Source of the DNA: an uncultured bacterium
GTDB taxonomy: Bacteria > Joyebacterota > Joyebacteria > Joyebacterales > Joyebacteraceae
Length of the DNA: 64,000 bases
Assembly: GCA_964399265.1 (NCBI GenBank)
Contig: CAYNQF010000003.1
Coordinates: forward strand, 3,104-67,103
Direction of reading: 5' to 3'
A model generated the notes under the pieces. It saw only the letters and a list, made by a program, of their open reading frames with translations, was not told the DNA's origin and ran no database searches. How positions within the stretch are numbered: position 1 is the first letter of the stretch; every line of letters begins with the position of its first letter. The position numbers were made by a program, and so were the translations under genes. This document shows, in pieces, positions 4,634 through 17,234 of this stretch.

Positions 4634-5469
4634 TGAAGGAATCCGCGCCACGTGAGTTCGGGGGAGAATCCGAGAAGTCTCGCCGCTTCACGCGACGTGA
4701 CGAGCGAGCCGTATTGAGAGATGCCGGGCCTCATGGCCGTCTCTGCGTAGTACTTCTCGACCAGTTTCCTCGTCGGAAAGATGGTCCCGTTGTCCGGGGC
4801 GGAGAGGAGGATGGGGTGATGTCCCGGCGCAAGGTCGGCCTCCGCCGCGCGGCGCACCGCCTCAGCGACGTCGTCTCCATGGACGTACGACCACAGCCCT
4901 CCGACCCATTCCTCAGGGTCGTGCGTGAGGCGTCTGCTCTGAGCGTACTCTTCCTCGACCCACACCCACGACGGTCGCAGACTGACCACGACGGTGTCCG
5001 CGGGCCGCTTGTCGGTCAGCGACTCCTCCGCCATCAGCTTGCTACGTCCGTACGGATCGACCGGCGCCATGACGTGCTCCTCGTCCACGGGGAAGTACCT
5101 AGGTCTCACCCTGCCCGCGCCGAACGTGAATCCCAGGACCGAATCGCTGGAGATGTTGACGAAGCGTCTGACGCCCGCCTCGAACGCCGCGTCGGCCACT
5201 CTTCTGGTCCCCTCTATGTTGGTGAGGTAGATGTCGTCTGGGAGCCCGAACTGCGGACCGGGGATGGCGGCGGCGTGGACGATCGCGTCGGCCCCCTGGA
5301 CGGCGCGTCCCACGGCGTCCCTGTCCAGGATGTCAGAGGCCTCGTGCTCTCCCGGAGCCCCGGCCGGCGGCGGCTTGAGGTCCAGGTTGAGAACGTCGTG
5401 GTCTCCGGCCAGGAGCTTCACGACGCGCCTTCCCACAAGACCGCTTCCTCCCGTTACTACGATGCGCAT
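4630..5469 (-). CDS. NAD-dependent epimerase/dehydratase family protein (extended SDR)
   Basis: N-terminal MRIVVTGGSGLVGRRV Rossmann motif, and ...YGRSK active-site region. Confidence 0.8.
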   Translation of the reverse strand: MRIVVTGGSGLVGRRVVKLLAGDHDVLNLDLKPPPAGAPGEHEASDILDRDAVGRAVQGADAIVHAAAIPGPQFGLPDDIYLTNIEGTRRVADAAFEAGVRRFVNISSDSVLGFTFGAGRVRPRYFPVDEEHVMAPVDPYGRSKLMAEESLTDKRPADTVVVSLRPSWVWVEEEYAQSRRLTHDPEEWVGGLWSYVHGDDVAEAVRRAAEADLAPGHHPILLSAPDNGTIFPTRKLVEKYYAETAMRPGISQYGSLVTSREAARLLGFSPELTWRGFLQ

Positions 5470-5497
5470 GCGCTCTCCACTTGATACGAGTCAGCGG

Positions 5498-5968
5498 TCA
5501 CTCACCGACGATCTGTACGACGACCTCCCTTGTTCTCGGACGGTCGTCGAAGTCTACGAGCACTATCTGCTGCCAGGTTCCCAGTGCCAGGTCCTGCCCG
5601 ACGAAGGGGACGGAAAGGCTGGGCCCCAGCATCGCGGCGCGCACGTGGCTGTGGCCGTTGTAGTCGCCCCAGCGGAGGTGGTGTTTCCAGTCCCTGCCCT
5701 TAGGCGCCATCTCCTCGAAGACCGACTGCAAGTCCTGGACCGCACCCGGCTCGAATTCGATGGTAGTTATCGCGGCCGTCGAGCCGCCGATGAAAAGTGT
5801 GGCCGTGCCGTCCAGGAGCCCGCTCTCTCTGACGGCCTCGGCGACGTCCATCGTGATATCGATCGTGTCCCCGTCGCCGCGCGTCCGCGCGGTCACTGTT
5901 GCCGTGACGACCGCCAACTCTCTTGCACCTCCGCCTGCCTGCGCGATGTGCGGCGCGCATGCCGGCAT
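5498..5968 (-). CDS. yjbQ: YjbQ/UPF0047 family protein (secondary thiamine-phosphate synthase-like)
   Basis: ~150 aa with characteristic HHLRWGDYNGHSHVRAAMLGPSLSVPF and QQIVLVDFD segments. Confidence 0.75.
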   Translation of the reverse strand: MPACAPHIAQAGGGARELAVVTATVTARTRGDGDTIDITMDVAEAVRESGLLDGTATLFIGGSTAAITTIEFEPGAVQDLQSVFEEMAPKGRDWKHHLRWGDYNGHSHVRAAMLGPSLSVPFVGQDLALGTWQQIVLVDFDDRPRTREVVVQIVGE

Positions 5969-6164
5969 TCAGGCCCGCTTTTGTGAATCGTCCATCAGTA
6001 TTGTGCTGACCAGCTCACCAGAGAAGCGTACAATCCCGAGGCGCCGCTGTCGAGAGCGGTGCGGCAGCTAAGACGGTGAACGTCCTTCGGTGAAATGCTA
6101 TTCTGGACCTTGCGCGTCCGTGGACCGCGGACGACGGATGGTCGGACGCGCGTGGAGACCGCAG

Positions 6165-6911
6165 ATGAGCTACGAGAATACCGCCGAGTACTACGACAGC
6201 TTCGACATGAAAGGCAACCTCCAGTTCTACCTGGACCTTGCGGGCACGACCACCGGCAAGGTGCTGGAATTGGGCGTGGGGACGGGGCGGGTCCTTCTGG
6301 AGATCGCAAGGCTTCAGAGGGACGTCGTCGGGATCGACCATTCGGTCGCTATGCTCCGCGAGGCCAAGCGGAAGAGGCGTGAGAGCTACCCGGACGTGTC
6401 CGGGCGGTGCCGTCTGCTCCTGGCGGACATGCTCTCGTTCGACCTCGAGGAGAAGTTCGGGCTTGTCTACTCCGCCTCGGGGCCGGTCCAGTCCGGCACG
6501 GTGGACGACCTGCGCGGCATCTTCCGGAACGCCGCCGCTCACCTCGCCGATGACGGGCTGTTCGCGTTCGACATCTCGTCGCCGTCGGCCCTCAGGCAGA
6601 CCAGAGTCTACGGACCTGAGCGACGGGAGCTGCAGGGCGGCCGAGTCGTCATCAGGTTCATCGCACAGACGTACGACGAGAGCACCGACACCGTCTCGTA
6701 CGACCTCCTGTTCAAGGAGAGCATCCCCGGAAGGACGTCCATAGTCACCACAAAGGAGAGCGACACGGGGGCGGTGGTCACGCCCGAGGCGATCCGGGAT
6801 GCCTTCGGCTATGCCGGGCTCGAGTTGCTGAACATGTACGGCGACTTCGACCTCTCTCCATACACCGACGACAGCCCGTACATCGTTGTCGTCGCGGGGC
6901 ATCGTCCATGA
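6165..6911 (+). CDS. Class I SAM-dependent methyltransferase
   Basis: LELGVGTGRVLLEIA glycine-rich SAM motif. GGAGA RBS 6 nt upstream of ATG 6165. Its stop overlaps the next gene's start (ATGA at 6908). Confidence 0.75.
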   Translation: MSYENTAEYYDSFDMKGNLQFYLDLAGTTTGKVLELGVGTGRVLLEIARLQRDVVGIDHSVAMLREAKRKRRESYPDVSGRCRLLLADMLSFDLEEKFGLVYSASGPVQSGTVDDLRGIFRNAAAHLADDGLFAFDISSPSALRQTRVYGPERRELQGGRVVIRFIAQTYDESTDTVSYDLLFKESIPGRTSIVTTKESDTGAVVTPEAIRDAFGYAGLELLNMYGDFDLSPYTDDSPYIVVVAGHRP

Positions 6912-9900
6912 AGCGCTCGTTTCCGATCATCCTGGCGGCGACGGCCGCCGTCATGCTCGCGCTGGTGGCGCCGTGCGCGGCCCAGGAGGCCGACCCCGGT
7001 GCGCTGACGCAGAGGATCGTGGAGCTGCGCCTGGCGGGCGACTACACGGGGGCCGCTGCGGCCGCTGCGGCGCTTCTTGACGCCGTTGTCGGCGACCCGG
7101 AGGCGACCGAGCTGGACGTGGATGACGCGACCCAGCTCGTGGCGACGCTGCGGTTCGCCGCGACGCTTCCCGAGGCGGCGAGGCTGGAACTCGCGCGTGC
7201 CGACAGCTTCGGCATGGCGATGGAGGAGTCCTGGGCGCAGGGCCTCTACAAAGAGGGCGCCGGGGCGGCTCGCCAGCGACTCCACCTGTACAGGGAGTAT
7301 TTCGGCGAGAGGCATCTCGCCACCGCCACCGCCGAGGACGAACTGGCGTCGCTGCTCCAGTACGAGGGCGAGTACGAAGAGGCGGAGCCGCTGTTCCTCG
7401 ATGCTCTCCGCATCAGGAGGGAGCAGCTGGGGCCCGACCACGTGTACGTGGGCGCCACGCTCAACAACCTCGGAATGCTACACCAGGCGACCGGCGACCT
7501 CGAGGCCGCGCGCGACGACATCACGGAGTCGCTCGACATACTCACCCGCGCGCTCGGCGACGACGACCTGAACGTAGCCGCGATCACCGCCAACCTCGGC
7601 ATCCTGCTTCAGCGGATGGGCGACTACGACGGCGCCGAGCGTCATCTCCTGCGAGCGCTCGAGGTTCGGCGGGCGGCTCTTGGCGACGACAATCCCGACG
7701 TCGCCTCGAGCCTGAACGCGCTCGCAAGCTTCTACTACGACAGTATGGACTACGCGAAGGCCGAGCCGTTCCTGCGGCGCGCCACTGCGACCTGGCAGGA
7801 GGTGCTCGGCAACGACCACCCGTACGTTGCGCTCTCACTGAGCAACATGGGCGCGCTCCTGGCGGCGCGAGGCGAGTACTCGGAGGCCGAGGCCTTTCAC
7901 CGTCAGGCGGTCGACATCTACCGGGCGACACTGGGCGACGAGCATCCGGACCTCGCGTTCGCCCTTCACAACCTCGCGCACACGCTGGAGAGCGAGGGCG
8001 ACTATGCCGGCGCTGAGCCCCTGTTCCGTGAGTCGCTCGAGATCAGGCGCAGCGCGTTCGGCGACACGCACCCGGAGGTGGCGGTCAGCCTGAACGGGCT
8101 GGCGCACGTCCTCCAGGTGGCCGGAAAGTATGACGAGGCGGAGCCTCTATACAGAGAGGCGCTCGCCATGCACCGCGAACTCCTGGGCGACGACCACTTG
8201 GAGGTCGCCACCGACCTATCTAACCTGGCGTCGCTTCTCGAGGAGACGGGTCGACTGGACGAGGCCCTCGGGCTCTATCGAGAGGCCCTCGAGATCCGGA
8301 CGCGCACGCTCGGCGGGCAGAGCGCTGCCGTGGCGTACAACCTGAGCAGCATCGGGCACCTGGAGCTTCGGGAGGGCTACCCCGTCGCGGCGGAGATGAC
8401 GCTCGGAGAGGCCGCGTCCGTCTACGACGCTGCGAGACTGCGGGCGGGTACGGGCATGTCCAGCGCCACCATGGCCTTGAGGCTCAGGCCGCCCCTCGTG
8501 GCGTTGGCGGTTTCGCGCCTCGAGCAGGGCAAGGTCGATGACGCGTGGCCGGCGGCCGAGAGGGCGCTGGCGCGCACCCTTGCCGACCTCCTCATGAGCG
8601 CGGAGGAGCGCTCCCTCACCCGGGCCGAGTCGGTGCGCGAGGATTCGCTCCGGTCCCTCTTGGCCAACCTCGAGGGAGAGGTGCTGGCCTACGCCGGCGC
8701 GGCGGCGTCGGACTCAACCGGCGAGGCAGCGCGGCTGGGCGAGGAGAGCCGCCACAGGCTGCTCGAGGCCGAGGCGGACTGGAGCGCGTTTCAGCAGCGT
8801 CTGGCGGAAGCGCACCCGGTGACCGAGGGACACCTGTTTCCGCTCGAGCGCATCCAGCGTGCGCTCGGGCAGGAGACCGCGATCATCGGATGGATCGACG
8901 CGGACGTAGGCGGCGGCGATGTTGAGTCGTGGGGCTACGTCATCAGGCACGATGGATCAGTCGGCTGGGCGAGATGCGGGAGCGCCACCGGCTCGACCGT
9001 CCGCTCTCTGCAGAGAAGATACGGGAAGTACCGGGAGCAGATCTCCGATCCGTCGTCGTCGAGCGCGGGTCTCTTGAGAGACGCGAGGTCGATCTGGCGC
9101 GAGCGACTCGAGCCGCTCATGCCGTCGCTCGAAGGCGCACGCGCACTGGTCGTGCTGCCCTCCGGGTCGGTCCTGGGTCTTCCGCTGGAGACGCTGGTGG
9201 ACGACGCCGGTGTGCTCGTCGGAGACCGCTTCGCGGTCTCGTACGCTCCGTCGGCCACGGTGTTCGCCTGGCTCGAGGAGCGCGGCGAAACGGCAGGGCG
9301 CTCCGACGCGATGCTCCTGGTCGGCGACCCGCCCTTCACCGAGGCCGATCTTGAGGCGATGGAGAGTGAGGCATCGGAGGCAGGGGTTGCCCGCGGCGCC
9401 TCCGAGGACACGGAGTCGGACGACCCACGAGCCGCCGGCGACCCGGAACGCGGCGTCCGCGGCGGCCGGTCCTCGCTCGAGGGGCTTCCTCGACTGCCCG
9501 GCTCGAGAGCCGAAGTTCTTTCGCTTTCGTCTCTGACCGATGACGCGACCGTGCTCCTGGGGCCCGATGCGACCGAGCAGGAGCTGGTCGAGCTGGCGTC
9601 GGAAGACAAACTCAAGGACTACGGCATCATTCATCTGGCAACGCACGCACTCGTCGATGACGAGAGGCCGGACCAGTCGGCCCTCGTGCTGTCGCAGGTA
9701 GACCTTCCCGATCCGCTCGAATCGGCTCTGGCCGGCAGCCGGATTTACGACGGGCTCCTGACCGCAGGAGAGATCGTCAGGGAGTGGGACCTGGACTGCG
9801 ACCTCGTCTCGCTCTCGGCTTGCGAGACGGCGCTCGGCAAGGAGGTCGCGGGCGAGGGGTACATCGGGTTCGCGCACGCGTTCCTGCAGGCCGGAGCGCG

Positions 9901-10150
9901 GGGCATGCTCCTGAGCCTCTGGAAGGTGGAGGACACAGCGACGTCGCTCCTCATGCGCAGATTCTACGAGAACAGGCTCGGCGTCTACGACGACGAGCGC
10001 GGAAATGAGCCGGGATTCAAAATGAGCAAGGCCGACGCCCTCCGCGAGGCGAAGGCGTGGCTCCGCGCCTACACCGACGCGGACGGCTACCGTCCGTACG
10101 ACCACCCCTACTACTGGTCCGCCTTCGTGCTGATCGGCGACAGAAGCTAG
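6908..10150 (+). CDS. Secreted TPR-repeat / CHAT-domain protein (caspase-like protease), 1080 aa
   Basis: Signal peptide (MKRSFPIILAATAAVMLALVAPCAAQ). About 10 TPR_10/12-like repeats (NLGMLHQATGDLEAARDDITESLDI...). C-terminal CHAT domain with His (IIHLATHALVD) and Cys (LVSLSACETALG) dyad context. Confidence 0.85.
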   Translation: MKRSFPIILAATAAVMLALVAPCAAQEADPGALTQRIVELRLAGDYTGAAAAAAALLDAVVGDPEATELDVDDATQLVATLRFAATLPEAARLELARADSFGMAMEESWAQGLYKEGAGAARQRLHLYREYFGERHLATATAEDELASLLQYEGEYEEAEPLFLDALRIRREQLGPDHVYVGATLNNLGMLHQATGDLEAARDDITESLDILTRALGDDDLNVAAITANLGILLQRMGDYDGAERHLLRALEVRRAALGDDNPDVASSLNALASFYYDSMDYAKAEPFLRRATATWQEVLGNDHPYVALSLSNMGALLAARGEYSEAEAFHRQAVDIYRATLGDEHPDLAFALHNLAHTLESEGDYAGAEPLFRESLEIRRSAFGDTHPEVAVSLNGLAHVLQVAGKYDEAEPLYREALAMHRELLGDDHLEVATDLSNLASLLEETGRLDEALGLYREALEIRTRTLGGQSAAVAYNLSSIGHLELREGYPVAAEMTLGEAASVYDAARLRAGTGMSSATMALRLRPPLVALAVSRLEQGKVDDAWPAAERALARTLADLLMSAEERSLTRAESVREDSLRSLLANLEGEVLAYAGAAASDSTGEAARLGEESRHRLLEAEADWSAFQQRLAEAHPVTEGHLFPLERIQRALGQETAIIGWIDADVGGGDVESWGYVIRHDGSVGWARCGSATGSTVRSLQRRYGKYREQISDPSSSSAGLLRDARSIWRERLEPLMPSLEGARALVVLPSGSVLGLPLETLVDDAGVLVGDRFAVSYAPSATVFAWLEERGETAGRSDAMLLVGDPPFTEADLEAMESEASEAGVARGASEDTESDDPRAAGDPERGVRGGRSSLEGLPRLPGSRAEVLSLSSLTDDATVLLGPDATEQELVELASEDKLKDYGIIHLATHALVDDERPDQSALVLSQVDLPDPLESALAGSRIYDGLLTAGEIVREWDLDCDLVSLSACETALGKEVAGEGYIGFAHAFLQAGARGMLLSLWKVEDTATSLLMRRFYENRLGVYDDERGNEPGFKMSKADALREAKAWLRAYTDADGYRPYDHPYYWSAFVLIGDRS

Positions 10151-10282
10151 CGCGTCGTTCCCTCGAACCTCAGCCCACCGTTGATTGTAGTTCATCATGG
10201 TTGGGAATCCTGTGCGCATGAGGTAGCATCGTGAGCGCGGTGGTCGGCCGCATCGCGGCAGCGGGGATCAGGAGGTAGGGCA

Positions 10283-11212
10283 ATGAGACGCATTCTCCCT
10301 TGGGCAGCCGTCGGGCTCGTCCTGGCCGTCTCCCCGGTGGTCACTGCCGGGCCTAATGACGGCGCGTCTCCGGTACCCTCCTCCGGTGTGGTCGTTTCGG
10401 TGCAGGGTGATGTCAAGGTAGAGCGGGCCGGGGAGTCCGAGCCGGTGACAGAGGGGCTCGTGCTCCAGCAGGGTGACGTCGTGAGCGCTCCCGAGGGCAC
10501 GCGCTGCACCGGGTTTACCCCGTCGGGCGAGCCGTTCGAGCTGTCGGGTCCGGGCGAGCTCCGTCTCGCGCGGATCGAGGGAGACGGCGTTATCGACAGG
10601 GTGACGCTCTGGGTTCGCCGCCAGCTGACCCAGTGGATCGGCGAGAGCAGAAGACAACCCATCGTCACGCGGGCTCTTAGGCGCGACTGGGAGGTCGAGA
10701 CCCTGACTCCTGCGCCTATCATCCCGGCGGCCGGCGGGCAGGTGCGCCCCGACAGCGCCGTTTTCTACTGGGGGACGGTCCCGGGCATCGACCGCTATCT
10801 CGTCACCTTCGTCTCGGAGGACGGCCACGAGACGAACCGCACCGTGAGGGGGCACAGGCTCGTGGTCGAGGACCTTGTCCCGGGCAACGACTACGTCTGG
10901 AAGGTGCGTCCCGCGGTCGACGGGTGGACGGGGCAGGCCAGGTGGCGCGAGTTCAGGGTGATGCTTCCCGAGGAGGAGTCGGGCCTGGACGACGCCGTCG
11001 CGGAGATGAACGACCTCGAGGCCGGCGTCCTGCTTCTGTCGGCGGGGCTGCACGAGGAGGCCGCCTACCGTCTCGACTCAGCCGTTGCCTCCGTCTCGAG
11101 CGGACCCTCGGCGCGGAAATGGCGCGCCCAGACGATGGCTGAGATCGGGCTCTACCAGGACGCATACGAGGACCTGGTGAGGAGCTGGGACGAGTCGTCG
11201 GAGATGCGCTGA
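10283..11212 (+). CDS. Secreted FecR-domain protein with FN3-like and helical C-terminal regions (paralog 1)
   Basis: Signal peptide. FecR-like core (VQGDVKVERAG...LVLQQGDVVSAPEGTRCTGFTPSGEPFELSGPGELRL). FN3-like YVWKVRP segment. No transmembrane anti-sigma segment. Confidence 0.7.
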   Translation: MRRILPWAAVGLVLAVSPVVTAGPNDGASPVPSSGVVVSVQGDVKVERAGESEPVTEGLVLQQGDVVSAPEGTRCTGFTPSGEPFELSGPGELRLARIEGDGVIDRVTLWVRRQLTQWIGESRRQPIVTRALRRDWEVETLTPAPIIPAAGGQVRPDSAVFYWGTVPGIDRYLVTFVSEDGHETNRTVRGHRLVVEDLVPGNDYVWKVRPAVDGWTGQARWREFRVMLPEEESGLDDAVAEMNDLEAGVLLLSAGLHEEAAYRLDSAVASVSSGPSARKWRAQTMAEIGLYQDAYEDLVRSWDESSEMR

Positions 11213-11291
11213 GGATCCCGCGAACTTCATGCTCCTCTCGTTTGTAGTTCACTGCGCAGGTGACAGCATCACTCCTTCTTCCGGAGGCGGT

Positions 11292-12200
11292 ATGCAGCTA
11301 GCACAGTCGAAGAGGGCCCGCATGGGGCTTATCGTGTTCTGCCTTTGTCTGTTCCTCCCGGTCGCCGCCTGGAGCGGCGAGTCGCCCGGCGGCCTCGTGG
11401 TGTCCGTCGCAGGGGATGTGATCGTCAAGCGGGGCGAGGGCGAGATGCCGGCGCGGGAGGGATTCGTTCTCCGCGACGGCGACACCGTGGTGGCGAAGAC
11501 GGGGGCCACGTGCACCGGTTTCACCCCGGTGGGCGAGGAGTTCAACCTCGTGGGTCCGGGCGAGATGCAGTTCGCGGGCGGCGAGAGCGGCGCGGCGGGC
11601 AATCTGGCCTCGTGGGTGCGCTCTCAGCTGGCCGACTGGATCGGCGAGAGCCGCAGACAGCCTCTGAGGACCAGGACCGTCCGCGACTGGGCGATGCCGA
11701 CAGAGGCGCCGGCCCAGATGATTCCCGCGCAGGACGGAAAGGTGCGCGTCGAAGAGGCTCACCTCTTCTGGAGTGAAGTACCCGGCGTCGACAGCTATCT
11801 CCTGACCATCGCTCCGGCCGACGGGAATGAGGTGACGCGCGTCGTCCGCGACAACGGCGCCGTGCTCGAGGACCTGGCTCCGGGCGAGGAGTACGTCTGG
11901 AAGGTCCAGCCCGAGGCCGACGGATGGGAGGGTGAGTCCGGGTGGCGCTCCTTCGTGGTGATGACACCGGACGAGGAGCAGAGACTCGACCAGGCCATCG
12001 ACAAGCTCGGCGACCTCGAGGCCGGCGTCCTGCTCCTGTCGTCGGGGCTTCACGAGGAGGCCATCTACAGGTTCGACACCGCGGTCGCCTCGCCTTCGCA
12101 GGCCCGCTCGGCCCGCATGTGGAGGGCCAGGGCGTTCGCCGACATCGGCCTCTACAAGCAGGCATACGAGGACCTGCTCGAAGCCCGGGGTGAAGAGTGA
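11292..12200 (+). CDS. Secreted FecR-domain protein (paralog 2, tandem duplicate)
   Basis: GGAGG RBS 5 nt before ATG 11292. About 45% identity to the upstream gene, with shared motifs CTGFTP.GE.F.L.GPGE, WIGESRRQP and GVLLLSxGLHEEA. Confidence 0.7.
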   Translation: MQLAQSKRARMGLIVFCLCLFLPVAAWSGESPGGLVVSVAGDVIVKRGEGEMPAREGFVLRDGDTVVAKTGATCTGFTPVGEEFNLVGPGEMQFAGGESGAAGNLASWVRSQLADWIGESRRQPLRTRTVRDWAMPTEAPAQMIPAQDGKVRVEEAHLFWSEVPGVDSYLLTIAPADGNEVTRVVRDNGAVLEDLAPGEEYVWKVQPEADGWEGESGWRSFVVMTPDEEQRLDQAIDKLGDLEAGVLLLSSGLHEEAIYRFDTAVASPSQARSARMWRARAFADIGLYKQAYEDLLEARGEE

Positions 12201-14083
12201 AGTTCCGGAGTTCTCTGCGAGGGAGCAGGCTCAAGCGCCTGCTCCCTCTGCTCTACCTGATACCGCTCGCCTACGTGGCATGGCCTATCTTCTGGGCCCC
12301 GCTCGACGCGCGTTTCTTCAACTATTTCCAGTCCAAACGTGCCGTGCGGCCGTGGACCGAGGTCGTCGTCGTAGGCATCGACAGGCCCACGCGCGAGCAG
12401 CTGTTTGACTCGCCGGTCTTCCCCCTGTCGAGGCACACCGACAAGCACGCGCGCATGGTAGAGATCCTGGACGCGGCCAATGCGCGCGCGATCGTGTTCG
12501 ACCTCGCTCTGGGGGCGGACACGTTCGACGCTCCCCCGACCAGGTTCGCCGAAGCCATCCGTAGGTCCGGCAAGGTATACCTCGTGATGTCGCTGCGCGA
12601 GGAGCGGAGGTCCGCGCGCTCCGGCGACACCGCCGTTCTGCTCACGGCCAGCCTGCCGGATTCGCTTCTCATGTCGGCGGCCCAGGGAGCGTTCGTGGCC
12701 GACGTGCAGACCGACTCTGACGGCACCGTGAGGAGGTTCGACAGGGACCCGAGGCTCACCAGGCTCGGCCTCGAGTCCCTGCCGGAGAGGCTGTCGGGCG
12801 TCGACGTGGAGGGCAGCGTACCCATCGAGTTCCCGTCGATGGATGTGACCATCCCCGTCGTGTCGTACATGGACGTCTACAACGAAGACCCCGAAGTGTT
12901 GTCGCTGATTGACGGGCGCATCGCGCTCGTGGGACTGGTCGACGACCCATCGACCGACTTCGTCACCGTCCCGAGACTCCAGGACATTGGTGGTGGCGTA
13001 GAGGCGTTCGGCCTGCCGGGCGTGGTCGTACTGGGAGCCATAACGGAGACATTGCTTCGGGGTGCGCCGCTACATGACGCCGCGTGGCCGCTGACGCTCG
13101 CGTGGATCATTATCTGGTGTGTGGCCTGCGTGCTCCTGATGTCCAAGCGCAGGCCGGCCCTGGCGGCGTTCACGGCGCTGGCCGTGATCGCCGCGTGTCT
13201 GGTGACGACGGGGTTCCTTCACGCCACGGCCGGCATCGTGCTGCCGAGTGGCCTGGTCCTGGGCGCGCTCCTCTTCTCGGCCTCGTTCGCTCTCGTGAGT
13301 AATCACGTTGAGACGACGAAGGAGCTTCACCTCGAGGCCGTCGAGAACGAGCGTGTACGGAAGGAACTGGAGACGGCGCGCCATACGCAAGAGCAGTTCC
13401 TGCCGGACGAGATCCCTCAGGTCGAGGGCCTGGACGTCTGGGGGATCAACGTGAGTTCTCTGGCCGTCTCGGGCGACTACTACGATGTGATCGACCTGGG
13501 CGGCGACGATGCGCTGGTCTTCACCATCGCGGACGTTTCGGGGAAGGGCCTGCCAGCGGCGCTCCTCATGTCGAACGTCCAGGCGGGGCTCCACTGCCAC
13601 ACGTTCCATCACGACTTCGACATCAAGGAAACGGCTGAGAACCTGAACAGCCTCGTCCACCGCAATACGGACGCCGGCAAGTTCGTGACTCTTTTCCTGG
13701 GTGAGATCGACAAGCGGACGCGTCTTCTCAAATACGTTCGCGCCGGGCACGACAACCCGATACTGGTCTCGAAGGACGGCGCTTGCCGCCAGCTGGAGGA
13801 GGGGAGCTTCGTGCTCGGGTTCATCCCCGAGGCCGAGTACGACGTAGCGGAGGAACAGCTCTCACCTGGGGACGTCCTCTGCCTGTACACCGACGGCGTT
13901 ACGGAGGCGCGCAATCAGGCCGACGAGGAGTTCGAACTCGACCGCGTCATCGAGGTCGTCACCGGGCATCGCGCCGAGTCGGCCGAGCAGATCGGGAGCG
14001 CGCTCCTCCAGGCGGTGCGCGATTTCTCGAAGCTCGAGTCCCAGGCCGACGACGTGACGCTCATCGTGATCAAGGTATGTTGA
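12197..14083 (+). CDS. CHASE2 sensor / transmembrane / PP2C (SpoIIE, RsbU-like) serine phosphatase
   Basis: GTG start overlaps the upstream stop (GTGA). N-terminal TM helix, then a CHASE2-like periplasmic domain (VVVGIDRPT...). Several TM helices, then a C-terminal PP2C region (SGDYYDVIDLGGD...ADVSGKG...LYTDGVTEA). Confidence 0.8.
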   Translation: MKFRSSLRGSRLKRLLPLLYLIPLAYVAWPIFWAPLDARFFNYFQSKRAVRPWTEVVVVGIDRPTREQLFDSPVFPLSRHTDKHARMVEILDAANARAIVFDLALGADTFDAPPTRFAEAIRRSGKVYLVMSLREERRSARSGDTAVLLTASLPDSLLMSAAQGAFVADVQTDSDGTVRRFDRDPRLTRLGLESLPERLSGVDVEGSVPIEFPSMDVTIPVVSYMDVYNEDPEVLSLIDGRIALVGLVDDPSTDFVTVPRLQDIGGGVEAFGLPGVVVLGAITETLLRGAPLHDAAWPLTLAWIIIWCVACVLLMSKRRPALAAFTALAVIAACLVTTGFLHATAGIVLPSGLVLGALLFSASFALVSNHVETTKELHLEAVENERVRKELETARHTQEQFLPDEIPQVEGLDVWGINVSSLAVSGDYYDVIDLGGDDALVFTIADVSGKGLPAALLMSNVQAGLHCHTFHHDFDIKETAENLNSLVHRNTDAGKFVTLFLGEIDKRTRLLKYVRAGHDNPILVSKDGACRQLEEGSFVLGFIPEAEYDVAEEQLSPGDVLCLYTDGVTEARNQADEEFELDRVIEVVTGHRAESAEQIGSALLQAVRDFSKLESQADDVTLIVIKVC

Positions 14084-14109: not shown

Positions 14110-14134
14110 GGGGCGGCTCGACATGAGCCGCCCC
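14110..14134. terminator. Bidirectional terminator hairpin between the convergent CHASE2-PP2C and pepF genes
   Basis: 10-bp GC stem (GGGGCGGCTC / GAGCCGCCCC) with a 5-nt loop. Confidence 0.5.
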
Positions 14135-14186: not shown

Positions 14187-16004
14187 CTATCCCTCGAGCC
14201 CGCAGTACGTATCGACCTGCGCCGCCAGCACTTTGATGCTCCCCTCCCAGAAATCGCGGGAGCGGATGTCGATGCCGTACTTGGCCGCGAGGTCGGCGGC
14301 CTTGCCCTCGCCGGTGCTGCGCAGCAGCTCCTTGTAGCGCGGGATGAACGCCTCGCCCTCCTTCTGATAGATGGCGTAGACGCCCAGGCCGAAGAGCAGG
14401 CCGAACGCGTAGGGGAAGTTGTAGAAGTTGTAGTCGTACGCGTAGTAGTGCGGCTTCAGGAGCCACATGTAAGGATGCAGGTGGTCCTGGTCGAGTCCGT
14501 CGCCGTAGGTCTGCTTCTGCGCGTCCACCATGATCTCGCAGAACTCATCGGCGGACAGCTCGGCATCGGCGCGGCGCTTCAGGACCTCACTCTCAAAGAT
14601 GAACCGCGAGTAGATGTCGACGATGACCTGCGTGGCGTTGATGAGCTGGTTCTCGAGAATGCCCAGCTGTGCCTCGGGCTTCGCGGTCTTCAGGGCCGCG
14701 TTCGTGACGAGCGTCTCGCAGAAGATCGACGCCGTCTCCGCCAGCGTCATCGGCGAACCGGCCCGGATCATGGGAAGGCCAATCTGGCAGTAGTTGTGGA
14801 ACGCGTGTCCCAGCTCGTGCGATACGGTCGACAGCTGGTCGAAGCTCCCGTCGAAATTGCACATCACGCGCGACTCATTGACCTTCGGAACGCGCATACA
14901 GAAGGCGCCGCCGATCTTCCCGTCGCGCGGCTCCGCGTCGATCCAGTTGTGCTCGAACGCGTTCCTCGCGAAGTCGGCAAGTTCACCGCTGAACGTCCCG
15001 AACTGCTCGACGACGAACGCCGTGAGTTCGTCCCATGTGTACTTGAGCTCCACTGAGCCGACCGGCGCCATCATGTCCCACCAGGGGAGCTTCTGCTTGC
15101 CGAGCTTCTCGGCCTTGCTCCTGAGGTAGCGCCTGAACGTGGGGAAGGAGGCCTTCATTGCCCCCATGAGCGCGTCCAGCGTGGCCCGGTCCATCTTGTT
15201 CGTTTCGAGCGACCAGTGCAGGACGTCGTCGTAGCCGCGCCGCCTGGCCATCGTGACGGCGGTTCCCTTCACACCGTTCATCGCGAACGCTACCGACTCG
15301 CGGATCGACTCCCATCCCCTGAGTTCCACCTCGTAGGCCCTGTGACGGACGTCCGGGTCCGCGTCGTTAGCGAGGTTGCGGAGCATCGTCATCGGGAGCG
15401 CCTCGGTCCTGCCGCTCTTGTCGGTGAACGGCATCTTGAGCTGGCTCGTGACGCGCTCCTGCAGCTTGTCCATGACGCCGCCGCCCGATGTCACGAGTTC
15501 CGACGCCAAGGCCTCCATCTCGGCGGTCATGCGGTACCTGCTGTCGTCCACGATGTCCTTGAGGGCGAGGCGGTGCTCCTTGGCTACGGGCGCGGTCTCG
15601 ACGACCTTGTCCAGCACGGGCGCGAGCGACCCTACCCATGCTTCGAACGGGACGTAGACCTTGCGGAAGCGCACGTGAAGCTGCTCGAACTCGCTCTGCC
15701 TGCGGGCCGCCAGCGTGTTGCGCGAATCGGTCGACACGAAGCTGTAGATGTACGCGTTCAGGGTCGACATCGTGAGCAGCGCTGCGTTCAGGATTTCGAG
15801 GATGCCGTCCAGGACCTTGCCCGTCGCTGCGGTGTCAGCCGGGGGCGCGTCGAGCTTGCGTATGCCGTGCTGTTGCTCATACTTCTCCAGCTTGTCAAGA
15901 TAGCCCTTGAAGAGCTCGATGTCGGCCTTGAAGTCGCCCGCGTCCAGCCCTCCGTAGACGTTCGAGAGATCCCAATGGGGGAGCTTGCCCTTCGCGTCTG
16001 CCAT
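14187..16004 (-). CDS. pepF: Oligoendopeptidase F (M3B family)
   Basis: HELGHAFH zinc motif and M3 fold-length protein. Start chosen at ATG 16004, which has a GGAGGTG RBS 6 nt upstream. The longer ORF start at 16073 has none. Confidence 0.85.
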   Translation of the reverse strand: MADAKGKLPHWDLSNVYGGLDAGDFKADIELFKGYLDKLEKYEQQHGIRKLDAPPADTAATGKVLDGILEILNAALLTMSTLNAYIYSFVSTDSRNTLAARRQSEFEQLHVRFRKVYVPFEAWVGSLAPVLDKVVETAPVAKEHRLALKDIVDDSRYRMTAEMEALASELVTSGGGVMDKLQERVTSQLKMPFTDKSGRTEALPMTMLRNLANDADPDVRHRAYEVELRGWESIRESVAFAMNGVKGTAVTMARRRGYDDVLHWSLETNKMDRATLDALMGAMKASFPTFRRYLRSKAEKLGKQKLPWWDMMAPVGSVELKYTWDELTAFVVEQFGTFSGELADFARNAFEHNWIDAEPRDGKIGGAFCMRVPKVNESRVMCNFDGSFDQLSTVSHELGHAFHNYCQIGLPMIRAGSPMTLAETASIFCETLVTNAALKTAKPEAQLGILENQLINATQVIVDIYSRFIFESEVLKRRADAELSADEFCEIMVDAQKQTYGDGLDQDHLHPYMWLLKPHYYAYDYNFYNFPYAFGLLFGLGVYAIYQKEGEAFIPRYKELLRSTGEGKAADLAAKYGIDIRSRDFWEGSIKVLAAQVDTYCGLEG

Positions 16005-16238
16005 TCTCACACCTCCTGCATTGTCCTGTTTCGTTCGGGGAGCGTCCATGCTATCACGGCACGTAGCGGCCATGAAGGGCTAGTTGCGGCATCCGGCGGT
16101 CGCCGGGGCGCTGGGGCCCCAAGCCTCTCACGGAAAAACCATGTGGGCCCGGACGGTGTCTCAGATGATGTGCGGGTCACTGGGATGTGCCCGTATCCAT
16201 CCAGAGCGCAAGTCTTGCCTCAACAAGGAGGTCGGGGG

Positions 16239-17234
16239 ATGAACGCTATCACCATGGCAGTAATGGCTCTAGCAGCGTTGGGTGTCGTCGCCTCGCCCTC
16301 CAGGGCGACGACGATCGACAGGGATTTTCACCAGAGCTTTGAGGTGAGCGAGGGGTTCCGGCTGGAGGTGAACAACGGCGACGGTGACGTGACGATCACC
16401 CCTTGGGACCAGGACGTAATCGATGTCGCCGTGCGCTGCCGCGCCGACGTGGTTCGCCTCGGCGTCGGAGACCCGCCGGACTTCACGGTGGACTTTGAGA
16501 CCGGAGACGACTTCGTCAAGGTGACCGGCCGCATGCTGCCGAGCGGTCCGGCGATGTTCCAGTCGGTTCAGATCTACGACTACAGGTACACGATAAGGGC
16601 ACCGGCGTGGGTGATGCTCGAGATCAATGGAAGCGACGGAGACATCGAGATCAGCGGGTGGCGTGCCGAGATAGACTGCGCTCTCGACGACGGCGATGTG
16701 CTGCTCGACAACGTGGCGGCACCGACCACGAGGATCGCTCTGAACGACGGAGACGTGACCGGAGTCGGCGTGTCCGGCGAACTGCGCATCTCGGGAGACG
16801 ACGGTGAGATAAGTCTGAGCAAGTGCGGTCCTGTCGTGACTAAGCTCGAAATCCAGGACGGAAGCGTCGACGTATCAGACTCGCGCGGCAGTTTCGACGT
16901 GTCCGTCGACGACGGGAACGTGTCTCTTGCGCTCGTCGAGGCGGGCGACGTGCGCGTTCGCGCGGCCGACGGAGACGTGAGCGCGACGGTGGCGGAAGGA
17001 TCTCCCGCGAGTCTCGACATAGAGACCGACGACGGAGAGGTCTTCGTGTCGATGCCGCCGGCCTCGTCCTACTCGTTCCGCATACAGACCGACGGCGGCC
17101 GCGTCAGCATCGACATTCCCGACCAGCAGGACGTCATGAAGGATGAGCACATGGCGATGGGCCGAGTGCGCGGCGGCACCGGGAACGTGCGGGTCAAGAC
17201 TCGCGACGGCGATGTTCGGATCACGGAGGGCTGA
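16239..17234 (+). CDS. DUF4097-type putative adhesin (beta-helical D/G-rich repeats), secreted
   Basis: AGGAGG RBS before ATG 16239. Signal peptide, then repeated DGDV/DGNV-containing beta-strand units typical of DUF4097. The 5' part of the ORF-track entry (from 15216) is antisense to pepF and was discarded. Confidence 0.7.
   Translation: MNAITMAVMALAALGVVASPSRATTIDRDFHQSFEVSEGFRLEVNNGDGDVTITPWDQDVIDVAVRCRADVVRLGVGDPPDFTVDFETGDDFVKVTGRMLPSGPAMFQSVQIYDYRYTIRAPAWVMLEINGSDGDIEISGWRAEIDCALDDGDVLLDNVAAPTTRIALNDGDVTGVGVSGELRISGDDGEISLSKCGPVVTKLEIQDGSVDVSDSRGSFDVSVDDGNVSLALVEAGDVRVRAADGDVSATVAEGSPASLDIETDDGEVFVSMPPASSYSFRIQTDGGRVSIDIPDQQDVMKDEHMAMGRVRGGTGNVRVKTRDGDVRITEG

What the first reader, a model, noticed from the sequence alone, without database searches (positions are those of the whole stretch)
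6165..14083. Five-gene co-directional cluster (methyltransferase, secreted TPR-CHAT protease, two FecR-domain paralogs, CHASE2-PP2C phosphatase): a candidate undescribed envelope sensing/proteolysis system
All five genes are on the + strand with tight junctions.
- The methyltransferase stop overlaps the CHAT start (ATGA at 6908).
- The gaps are 132 nt and 80 nt.
- The second FecR paralog's stop overlaps the phosphatase GTG start (GTGA at 12197).
A strong hairpin terminator follows the last gene (14110-14134). This suggests a single transcription unit.

The CHAT protein and both FecR-like proteins carry signal peptides. So a periplasmic caspase-like protease would be co-expressed with two periplasmic FecR-fold proteins and a membrane phosphatase whose sensor domain (CHASE2) is also periplasmic.

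I recall, without being able to verify here, that FecR-domain genes are often neighbours of CHASE2 genes. I do not know of a described module that adds a TPR-CHAT protease and a methyltransferase. This would be a new signalling/proteolytic cascade if the linkage is conserved.
Basis: partly seen in the sequence, partly recalled or inferred. Interest (0 to 1): 0.72.

Follow-up and report, generated by a model that had tools for sequence, protein, structure and literature searches.

The report
Secreted protease, co-receptors, CHASE2 phosphatase module
This is a real, conserved gene cluster from an uncultured Eisenbacteria-like bacterium: a secreted caspase-like protease, two secreted MtxA-like (not FecR) proteins and a membrane CHASE2 sensor phosphatase, which probably form one envelope-sensing pathway that is only partly new.

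Summary
The five + strand genes and their junctions are as described, apart from a 79-nt rather than 80-nt gap.

- **Confirmed domains:** HMMs confirm the methyltransferase, the secreted TPR-CHAT protease and the CHASE2-PP2C phosphatase. The protease has an intact His/Cys dyad. The phosphatase has 1+3 TM segments and intact metal motifs.
- **Synteny:** CHASE2-PP2C follows the MtxA-like gene in 33 of 33 related loci. TPR-CHAT precedes it in 24 of 29, with differing flanks.
- **Methyltransferase:** It is lineage-specific.
- **Prior knowledge:** Pairs of a CHASE2 receptor with a periplasmic FecR or MtxA partner are published but mechanistically unexplained. CHAT-CHASE2 adjacency also occurs in Sphingobium and Deinococcus, and I found no paper describing it.

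Best reading: a periplasmic co-receptor and protease input to a transmembrane Ser/Thr phosphatase. This is a new variant of a known kind, and the mechanism is inferred.

The parts
6006..6034 (+). Sigma-70-like promoter candidate (CTGACC-17-TACAAT). It lies in the divergent intergenic region between the UPF0047 gene (5498-5968, - strand) and the methyltransferase gene.
   Evidence: Consensus scan, (9/12 match; weak evidence only). UPF0047 was identified.
6165..6911 (+). Class I SAM-dependent methyltransferase, 248 aa, cytoplasmic with no hydrophobic segment. Its stop overlaps the CHAT start (ATGA). It is a lineage-specific neighbour, not a core part.
   Evidence: Pfam Methyltransf_25 2.4e-14. 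The best NCBIfam hit is far below its cutoff. It is 84% and 74% identical to the upstream genes in L005 and L007. It is also present in L036 and, downstream of the phosphatase gene, in L051. It is absent in about 11 other loci.
6908..10150 (+). Secreted TPR-CHAT caspase-like cysteine protease, 1080 aa. It has a signal peptide (residues 2-26), about 9 TPR_12 units and a CHAT domain (725-1078).
   Evidence: Pfam CHAT 1.7e-60 and TPR_12 1.2e-114. The dyad motifs are IIHLATHA (909) and LSACET (969). LSACET/LSACDT was found in 14 of 15 homologues and the His motif in 14 of 15. Hydrophobic N-terminus.
10283..11212 (+). MtxA-like secreted protein 1 (g3), 309 aa. It has a signal peptide, a retention-module-like beta-sandwich (35-94), a conserved helix/linker (104-137, W..Q...W.GESRRQP), an fn3/Ig domain (145-226) and a 5-helix TPR-like domain (229-308).
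11292..12200 (+). MtxA-like secreted protein 2 (g4), 302 aa, a paralog of g3 at 51% identity. Its stop overlaps the phosphatase GTG start.
   Evidence: The tandem pair recurs in L005-L008, L010, L013 and L034-L038.
12197..14083 (+). Transmembrane CHASE2 sensor fused to a cytoplasmic PP2C/SpoIIE-type Ser/Thr phosphatase, 628 aa. It has a TM at 15-36, a periplasmic CHASE2 domain, three TM segments at 294-371, and a PP2C domain at 437-627.
   Evidence: Pfam CHASE2 2.9e-23 and SpoIIE 7e-50. Hydropathy and the motifs SGDYYD425, DVSGKG446, DGVTEA566 and DDVT618. PDB sequence relatives are Rv1364c-RsbU, SpoIIE and RssB.
14110..14134 (.). GC-rich perfect hairpin between the convergent phosphatase and M3 peptidase genes. 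It is a probable bidirectional terminator and marks the end of the + strand unit.
   Evidence: z -3.35.

Best explanation
The conserved core is a three-part extracytoplasmic signalling module.
1. A membrane receptor whose periplasmic CHASE2 domain controls a cytoplasmic PP2C (RsbU/SpoIIE-type) Ser/Thr phosphatase.
2. One or two secreted MtxA-like proteins, translationally coupled to the receptor. They act as its periplasmic co-receptor or adaptor. This is the same positional role that FecR-family proteins and MtxA play next to other CHASE2 receptors.
3. A secreted TPR-CHAT caspase-like protease.

I propose the following mechanism. The protease is recruited through its TPR array. It binds or cleaves the MtxA-like protein in its conserved, flexible helix/linker between the N-terminal beta-sandwich and the fn3-TPR body. 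This changes what the CHASE2 domain sees. That in turn switches the phosphatase, which dephosphorylates an unlinked cytoplasmic phosphoprotein, most plausibly a STAS-type partner-switching protein.

Shown:
- the domain identities;
- intact catalytic motifs;
- export signals and membrane topology;
- conserved gene order and overlapping stop/start codons;
- the fold matches.

Inferred:
- physical interaction;
- who cleaves whom;
- the signal;
- the phosphatase substrate.

The methyltransferase is co-transcribed in this genome but is not a conserved member.
For: Gene order:
- A CHASE2-PP2C gene lies directly downstream of a g3-family gene in all 33 loci that have downstream sequence.
- A TPR-CHAT gene lies directly upstream in 24 of 29 informative loci. 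One further locus has a 203-aa remnant.
- The flanks differ between loci. Loci L009, L012-L014, L017-L019, L040, L044 and L047 lack the epimerase/UPF0047/M3 peptidase context. The triad persists down to 33% receptor identity (L019).
- A 4-nt stop/start overlap between the last g3-family gene and the phosphatase gene recurs in many loci.

Proteins:
- The CHAT proteins keep the His and Cys motifs (14 of 15 each), and most have hydrophobic N-termini.
- mtxA is followed by a CHASE2 adenylate cyclase gene (PMC4439547).
- Trypsin cuts MtxA at the equivalent inter-domain linker (PMC4439547).
- The g3 linker holds 6 of the 36 invariant residues (W110, Q114, W118, G120, P126, R130) but is modelled with low confidence. 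This pattern fits a binding or cleavage motif.

Other lineages:
- FecR-family genes sit directly upstream of CHASE2 receptors (PMC5192318; PMC9239204, where a TPR protein is also in the cluster).
- CHAT lies next to CHASE2 in Sphingobium (CHAT, then CHASE2-cyclase) and in Deinococcus.
Against: - There is no experimental or structural evidence of any interaction. I had no multimer prediction available.
- The core pair exists without CHAT in L001, L039, L045 and L050, and in the distant paralog system L020. CHAT is decayed in a complete Latescibacterota genome (L017). The protease is therefore dispensable for the receptor pair.
- The conserved linker motif persists in loci that lack CHAT (L001, L017). 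It is absent in L019, which has CHAT. It may therefore bind CHASE2 rather than serve as a CHAT site.
- No STAS, anti-sigma or other obvious PP2C substrate gene was found among the window ORFs scanned.
- The mtxA deletion in Magnetospirillum had no phenotype (PMC4439547).
- Operon status rests only on spacing and the absence of terminator-like sites.
Confidence: 0.55

Rival explanations
1. Only the pair of MtxA-like protein and CHASE2-PP2C is a functional unit, acting as co-receptor and receptor. The TPR-CHAT protease is an independently acting secreted protease, for example for envelope protein processing or nutrition. It is inherited alongside the pair by vertical synteny within one lineage.
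For: - The pair occurs without CHAT in L001, L039, L045, L050 and L020, and with a decayed CHAT in L017.
- The number of CHAT copies (1-2) does not track the number of g3 copies.
- Most loci come from one candidate phylum, so their counts are not independent.
Against: - CHAT stays adjacent while the flanking genes change, down to 33% receptor identity (L018, L019).
- CHAT-CHASE2 adjacency recurs in Alphaproteobacteria and Deinococcota.
- The CHAT proteins mostly carry export signals, matching the compartment of g3/g4 and CHASE2.
Confidence: 0.25
2. A Lap-like surface-retention switch. The N-terminal retention-module-like beta-sandwich of g3/g4 plugs or docks an outer-membrane pore. The periplasmic cysteine protease (CHAT in place of LapG) cuts the following linker to release the fn3-TPR body. 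The inner-membrane receptor (CHASE2-PP2C in place of LapD) couples this to cytoplasmic signalling.
For: - There are weak NCBIfam retention_LapA hits for both paralogs (E 0.019 and 0.084).
- In both LapA and g3, the domain is followed by a helix plus a flexible segment.
Against: - g3 and g4 have Sec-type signal peptides and are about 300 aa. LapA-type adhesins are giant type-1-secreted proteins without Sec signals.
- No type 1 secretion, LapG (DUF920) or LapD genes lie in the cluster.
- The NCBIfam hits are far below the cutoff of 50 bits.
- The sequence-level match to 5IX9 is not significant (E 0.51).
Confidence: 0.1
3. An anti-phage or conflict system in which the CHAT protease is a cell-suicide effector, as in type III-E Craspase or TIR-caspase systems.
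For: CHAT and caspase-like proteases act as effectors in several defence systems (titles and abstracts listed).
Against: - The protease and both partner proteins carry export signals.
- PADLOC gives only generic TPR and methyltransferase hits.
- Csx29 scores E 0.2 against a 300-bit cutoff.
- No CRISPR, TIR, nuclease or NTPase genes lie nearby.
- The locus is syntenic with housekeeping genes.
Confidence: 0.03

Closest known systems
MtxA with a CHASE2 adenylate cyclase gene pair, in magnetotactic Alphaproteobacteria (MGR_0208; PDB 4Z29; PMC4439547)
   Same: - A secreted protein of about 310 aa with the same order of parts: signal peptide, beta region, protease-sensitive linker, Ig/fn3 domain, 5-helix TPR.
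- The gene lies immediately upstream of a CHASE2 transmembrane receptor.
- The function is unknown.
   Different: - There is no detectable sequence similarity (family profiles do not hit 4Z29).
- The receptor output is PP2C, not a cyclase.
- Two tandem paralogs are present here.
- A TPR-CHAT protease gene is attached here. Whether mtxA loci have one could not be checked.
FecR-family (COG4254) protein with a CHASE2 receptor. Examples are the Burkholderia BiofilmReg operon and PA4035/PA4036 (PMC5192318), the Campylobacterota CHASE2 cyclase cluster with FecR and TPR proteins (PMC9239204), and Rhizobium/Bosea plasmids.
   Same: - A secreted partner gene lies directly upstream of a CHASE2 receptor, which carries various outputs.
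- A TPR protein is reported in the Campylobacterota cluster.
   Different: - g3 and g4 do not match PF04773 (0 of 48).
- hhalign of the family against a Rhizobium FecR protein gives 1.4% probability.
- No FecR/PupR chain appears among the listed top fold-search hits.
- Here the TPR protein carries a CHAT protease domain.
Lap system (LapA retention module, LapG periplasmic cysteine protease, LapD inner-membrane receptor)
   Same: - The logic is shared: a periplasmic cysteine protease, a substrate with an N-terminal beta-sandwich followed by a flexible cleavable linker, and an inner-membrane receptor.
- The N-domain fold matches 5IX9.
   Different: - The protease family differs (CHAT clan CD versus LapG).
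- There is no type 1 secretion system.
- The proteins are small and Sec-exported.
- The receptor is CHASE2-PP2C, not a HAMP-GGDEF-EAL c-di-GMP receptor.
RsbU/SpoIIE-type partner-switching phosphatases
   Same: The PP2C domain has all metal-binding motifs. Its closest solved relatives are Rv1364c-RsbU, SpoIIE and RssB.
   Different: The input is a periplasmic CHASE2 domain. No STAS or anti-sigma partner is encoded nearby.
Type III-E CRISPR TPR-CHAT (Csx29, Craspase) and HetF
   Same: The TPR plus CHAT architecture, with a caspase-like His/Cys dyad.
   Different: This protein is secreted, has no Cas7-11 or CRISPR context, and scores far below the Csx29 model cutoff.

Membership tests
FecR domain (Pfam PF04773) | Significant match to the PF04773 profile | tested here: not met
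   No hit at E<=10 for g3 or g4. 0 of 48 family members hit at E<=1. Divergent members L019-L021 also lack it. True FecR partners of CHASE2 do hit.
FecR domain (Pfam PF04773) | Homology or fold similarity to a FecR-family protein | tested here: not met
FecR-like partner of CHASE2 receptors (positional class) | Secreted protein encoded directly upstream of a CHASE2 receptor gene | tested here: met
   33 of 33 loci. Signal peptides.
MtxA-like proteins | About 310 aa: signal peptide, N-terminal beta domain, Ig/fn3 domain packed on a 5-helix TPR-like domain | tested here: met
MtxA-like proteins | Gene followed by a CHASE2-domain receptor gene | tested here: met
   Window genes 11292-12200 then 12197-14083. 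The MtxA context is described in PMC4439547.
MtxA-like proteins | Detectable sequence homology to MtxA | tested here: not met
   Profiles A1 and A3 do not hit the 4Z29 sequence at E<=10. An attempt to retrieve MtxA sequences failed.
CHAT protease (PF12770, clan CD) | Profile match plus a catalytic His and Cys | tested here: met
   CHAT E 1.7e-60. The motifs H-L-A-T-H-A at 909 and L-S-A-C-E-T at 969 are each found in 14 of 15 homologues scanned.
Type III-E Craspase TPR-CHAT (Csx29) | Match to NF041237 and association with Cas7-11/CRISPR | tested here: not met
   NF041237 E 0.2, 10 bits against a 300-bit cutoff. No cas genes among the neighbours. The protein has a signal peptide.
CHASE2 receptor (PF05226) | [quoted passage not shown] | tested here: met
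   83 bits against a 26.3-bit cutoff. Hydrophobic segments at 15-36 and 294-371.
PP2C / SpoIIE phosphatase (PF07228) | Profile match with the Asp-containing metal-binding motifs | tested here: met
   E 7e-50. SGDYYD, DVSGKG, DGVTEA and DDVT are all present.
Partner-switching module (RsbU-RsbV-RsbW type) | STAS-domain antagonist and anti-sigma kinase genes linked to the phosphatase | tested here: inconclusive
   None found among about 30 window ORFs scanned. Such partners can be unlinked, and the rest of the genome is unavailable.
Lap adhesin-release system | Retention-module fold at the N-terminus of the substrate | tested here: met
Lap adhesin-release system | Type 1 secretion genes, a LapG (DUF920) protease, a LapD receptor, and a giant RTX adhesin | tested here: not met
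   None are in the cluster or among the neighbours. The substrates are about 300 aa with Sec signals. retention_LapA scores 15 bits against a 50-bit cutoff.

The most novel reading that the evidence does not exclude
Regulated periplasmic proteolysis by a secreted caspase-like TPR-CHAT protease of an MtxA/FecR-type co-receptor is the actual input signal of CHASE2 receptors. This would be a general principle that explains why no ligand has been found for this widespread sensor domain since its definition in 2003. Here it is wired to a Ser/Thr phosphatase output.
Probability: 0.15. Interest if true: 0.8.

Novelty: new variant of a known kind. Interest (0 to 1): 0.55.

Why it matters
CHASE2 is a common bacterial extracellular sensor domain. 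The papers I read state that its stimulus is unknown (PMC5192318).

Its conserved periplasmic partners, the FecR-family proteins and MtxA, have no assigned mechanism. MtxA was crystallised and its gene knocked out without revealing a function.

This cluster shows three things:
- The partner class is broader than Pfam FecR. It includes MtxA-like proteins that are invisible to current HMMs.
- The receptor pair is repeatedly joined to a secreted, catalytically intact caspase-like protease.
- The output can be a PP2C phosphatase.

Together these give a concrete, testable hypothesis for how CHASE2 receptors are triggered, namely protease-dependent remodelling of a co-receptor. They also suggest a physiological role for secreted bacterial CHAT proteases, which are otherwise known mainly from cytoplasmic defence systems.

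Tried and rejected
- **Sequence link to MtxA.** The family profiles against PDB sequences found only generic fn3 and TPR hits.
- **Fishing MtxA into the session.** I built a pseudo-sequence from residues quoted in PMC4439547. I therefore could not inspect mtxA neighbourhoods for a CHAT gene.
- **Richter 2007.** The paper that named mtxA is not held.
- **AFDB fold search.** The afdb50 library was unavailable.
- **Exhaustive profile search.** The output was swamped by giant multi-fn3 proteins. Only about 35 full-length representatives were visible.
- **My own error.** My first synteny run used an out-of-frame methyltransferase query (6166 instead of 6165) and wrongly suggested the gene was unconserved. 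This was corrected.
- **ORF 5231-5986 (+).** I rejected it as spurious. The real upstream gene is UPF0047 on the - strand.
- **Defence-system reading.** Rejected on PADLOC results and predicted localisation.
- **Internal terminators or structured RNAs in the two gaps.** None were found.
- **STAS or anti-sigma genes in the window.** None were found.
- **Literature searches.** Searches combining CHAT with CHASE2, FecR or DUF928 found nothing.
Full report
**Observation**

The region holds five co-directional + strand ORFs:
- a methyltransferase at 6165-6911;
- a 1080-aa protein at 6908-10150;
- two paralogous ~300-aa proteins at 10283-11212 (g3) and 11292-12200 (g4), 51% identical;
- a 628-aa protein at 12197-14083.

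There is an ATGA overlap at 6908, a 132-nt gap and a GTGA overlap at 12197. The second gap is 79 nt rather than 80.

The hairpin at 14110-14134 is a perfect 10-bp stem. It is more stable than shuffles (z -3.35). It lies between the phosphatase gene and a convergent M3 peptidase gene. The consensus scan scores it as a terminator only on the - strand, because no U-tract follows it on the + strand.

The two internal gaps fold no better than shuffles and contain no terminator-like site.

The real upstream neighbour is a divergent UPF0047 gene at 5498-5968 on the - strand. A weak promoter-like site lies at 6006-6034. A single transcription unit is therefore plausible but untested.

**Domain checks**

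Pfam confirms Methyltransf_25, nine TPR_12 units plus CHAT (E 1.7e-60), and CHASE2 plus SpoIIE/PP2C.

The CHAT protein has a hydrophobic N-terminus and both catalytic motifs, IIHLATHA and LSACET. Of 15 homologues from related loci, 14 keep each motif and most have hydrophobic N-termini.

The phosphatase has the classical CHASE2 topology of one TM, an ectodomain and three TMs. It also has all four PP2C metal-binding motifs. Its closest solved relatives are RsbU-type, SpoIIE and RssB phosphatases.

The FecR assignment fails:
- Neither paralog hits PF04773 even at E<=10.
- None of 48 family members does.
- Three divergent relatives do not.
- Genuine FecR proteins next to CHASE2 receptors on Rhizobium and Bosea plasmids do hit it.
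- hhalign of the family against one of those proteins gives 1.4% probability.

**What the paralogs are**

An AlphaFold2 model built from 48 relatives has a mean pLDDT of 83. It shows, in order:
- a signal peptide;
- a small beta-sandwich (35-94);
- a helix (104-123) and a disordered segment (124-137);
- an fn3/Ig domain (145-226);
- a five-helix TPR-like domain (229-308).

The MtxA paper (PMC4439547) describes:
- a 313-aa secreted protein with the same four-part layout;
- a trypsin-sensitive linker before residue 142;
- no recognisable Pfam domain;
- no knockout phenotype;
- a gene followed by a conserved CHASE2 adenylate cyclase gene.

Sequence profiles of the family do not reach 4Z29. The relationship is therefore structural and contextual, and homology is not proven.

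This agrees with weak NCBIfam retention_LapA hits for both paralogs and a sub-threshold sequence hit (E 0.51). 5IX9 is the template that was used for the LapA retention module, which is followed by a flexible segment cut by the periplasmic protease LapG (bioRxiv 10.1101/198937).

In g3 the helix/linker after this domain holds 6 of the 36 invariant residues (W110, Q114, W118, G120, P126, R130). It is nevertheless modelled with low confidence.

**Conservation**

The family is narrow. A word-indexed search found 102 clusters, all about 300 aa. An exhaustive profile search showed about 35 full-length representatives among its top hits.

Source names point to Candidatus Eisenbacteria (Effluviviaceae). 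Single MAGs are labelled Krumholzibacteriota and Latescibacterota.

I collected loci from three sources: GTDB genomes, JGI metagenomes and exact-protein look-ups. I annotated them with phmmer and Pfam.

- A CHASE2-PP2C gene follows the g3-family gene in all 33 loci that extend far enough. It often has the same 4-nt stop/start overlap.
- A TPR-CHAT gene, sometimes two, lies directly upstream in 24 of 29 informative loci.
- One complete Latescibacterota genome retains only a 203-aa CHAT remnant (L017).
- Four loci have none (L001, L039, L045, L050).
- In L001 a CHASE2 histidine kinase takes the upstream place. One partner gene is therefore flanked by two CHASE2 receptors.
- The flanks differ among the more distant loci.
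- The triad persists at 33% receptor identity, where the partner is only about 20% identical (L019).
- Still more distant ~325-aa members of the superfamily precede paralogous CHASE2-PP2C genes, with no CHAT gene in the one locus that extends far enough upstream (L020; L021 starts only 264 nt upstream).

These counts are not phylogenetically independent.

The methyltransferase is adjacent only in the window, L005, L007 and L036 (upstream of CHAT) and in L051 (downstream of the phosphatase gene). It is absent from about eleven other loci. I regard it as a lineage-specific passenger or accessory.

**Beyond this lineage**

In the plasmid collection, FecR-family genes sit directly upstream of CHASE2-GGDEF-EAL receptors.

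I inspected eleven distinct plasmid loci holding CHAT homologues. Two have an adjacent CHASE2 gene:
- Sphingobium herbicidovorans has CHAT, then a CHASE2 cyclase, then a 239-aa unannotated protein, then an ShlB/FhaC transporter.
- Deinococcus taeanensis has TPR-CHAT divergent from a CHASE2-only protein and a 276-aa unannotated protein.

The Sphingobium 239-aa protein aligns weakly and in register with the family (hhalign E 0.004, probability 8%). This is suggestive only.

**Literature**

- FecR with a CHASE2 kinase is described as part of a Burkholderia biofilm operon and as PA4035/PA4036 (PMC5192318).
- In Campylobacterota, CHASE2 cyclases cluster with a FecR protein, a TPR protein and a phosphodiesterase (PMC9239204).
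- A metacaspase-CHASE2 fusion exists in Trichodesmium (PMC2853523, PMC3501461).
- No paper in the searchable library combines CHAT with CHASE2 or FecR. That library omits most subscription journals.

**Mechanism**

The best-supported reading is an envelope signalling module. A CHASE2-PP2C receptor works with one or two secreted MtxA-like co-receptors made in fixed proportion to it. A secreted TPR-CHAT protease acts on that complex. The most plausible action is binding or cutting the conserved flexible linker of the co-receptor. This would switch a cytoplasmic Ser/Thr phosphatase whose substrate is encoded elsewhere.

The shown steps are:
- domain identity;
- catalytic competence at the motif level;
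- predicted compartment;
- gene order;
- the fold matches.

The inferred steps are the interactions, the cleavage, the stimulus and the phosphatase target.

Evidence against a strict requirement for the protease:
- There are CHAT-less and CHAT-decayed loci.
- The linker motif does not correlate with CHAT presence.

Rival readings:
- The protease is an independent neighbour (0.25).
- The system is a Lap-like release switch (0.10).
- The system is a defence system (0.03). This is contradicted by the export signals and by the PADLOC result.

**Verdict**

- The linkage is conserved.
- The FecR label is wrong, at least as a family assignment.
- The methyltransferase is peripheral.
- The receptor-partner pairing is already known in other guises.
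- The conserved addition of a secreted caspase-like protease, the PP2C output, and the recognition that MtxA-like proteins are a hidden class of CHASE2 partners are new as far as I could check.

I rate it a new variant of a known kind, with moderate interest (0.55).

Noticed in passing
window 14187-16073 (-) and 15216-17234 (+): The M3 oligopeptidase ORF and a 672-aa + strand ORF overlap by about 850 nt. The + strand ORF's only Pfam hit (DUF4097 'toastrack') lies at residues 467-669. The DUF4097 gene probably starts much later than the listed GTG.
   Followed up: partly
window 5231-5986 (+) versus 5498-5968 (-): The 251-aa + strand ORF has no Pfam hit and overlaps a - strand UPF0047 gene (E 7.8e-33). 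It looks like a spurious shadow ORF in GC-rich DNA.
   Followed up: yes
L001 7986-12810: One g3-family gene is flanked by two CHASE2 receptors, a CHASE2 histidine kinase upstream and CHASE2-PP2C downstream. One partner protein may serve two receptors with different outputs.
   Followed up: no
L017 7369-7980 (complete Latescibacterota genome CP070631): The CHAT gene is reduced to a 203-aa C-terminal fragment. It keeps the His/Cys motifs but lacks the TPR array and signal peptide. The partner and CHASE2-PP2C genes are intact, and a GAF-SpoIIE phosphatase lies 1 kb downstream.
   Followed up: partly
L051 2509-2892; L036 392-1273: The methyltransferase homologue appears downstream of the phosphatase gene in L051 and upstream of CHAT in L036. 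It keeps adjacency in two different positions, which hints at a looser functional tie.
   Followed up: partly
L023 (Bosea), L033 (Sphingobium), L029 (Caballeronia), L032 (Trichormus): ShlB/FhaC/HecB-type two-partner-secretion transporters, sometimes with filamentous-haemagglutinin-domain proteins, sit next to FecR-CHASE2, CHAT-CHASE2 or CHAT genes. This may be a wider secretion-linked theme.
   Followed up: no
L005, L007, L012, L034, L036, L052; L019: Several relatives carry two TPR-CHAT paralogs, in tandem or flanking the module in L019. The window has one, orthologous to the second copy. In the window the methyltransferase directly abuts it.
   Followed up: partly
window 19450-22113 (+): A hybrid sensor kinase (GAF-PAS-HisKA-HATPase-REC) lies 5 kb downstream of the cluster. 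No link to the module was examined.
   Followed up: no
protein P0223 and others: The family profile's fn3 portion matches giant proteins of up to 7,300 aa with up to 70 fn3-like repeats. These swamp exhaustive searches, so the fn3 domain here is of a common bacterial surface-protein type.
   Followed up: no
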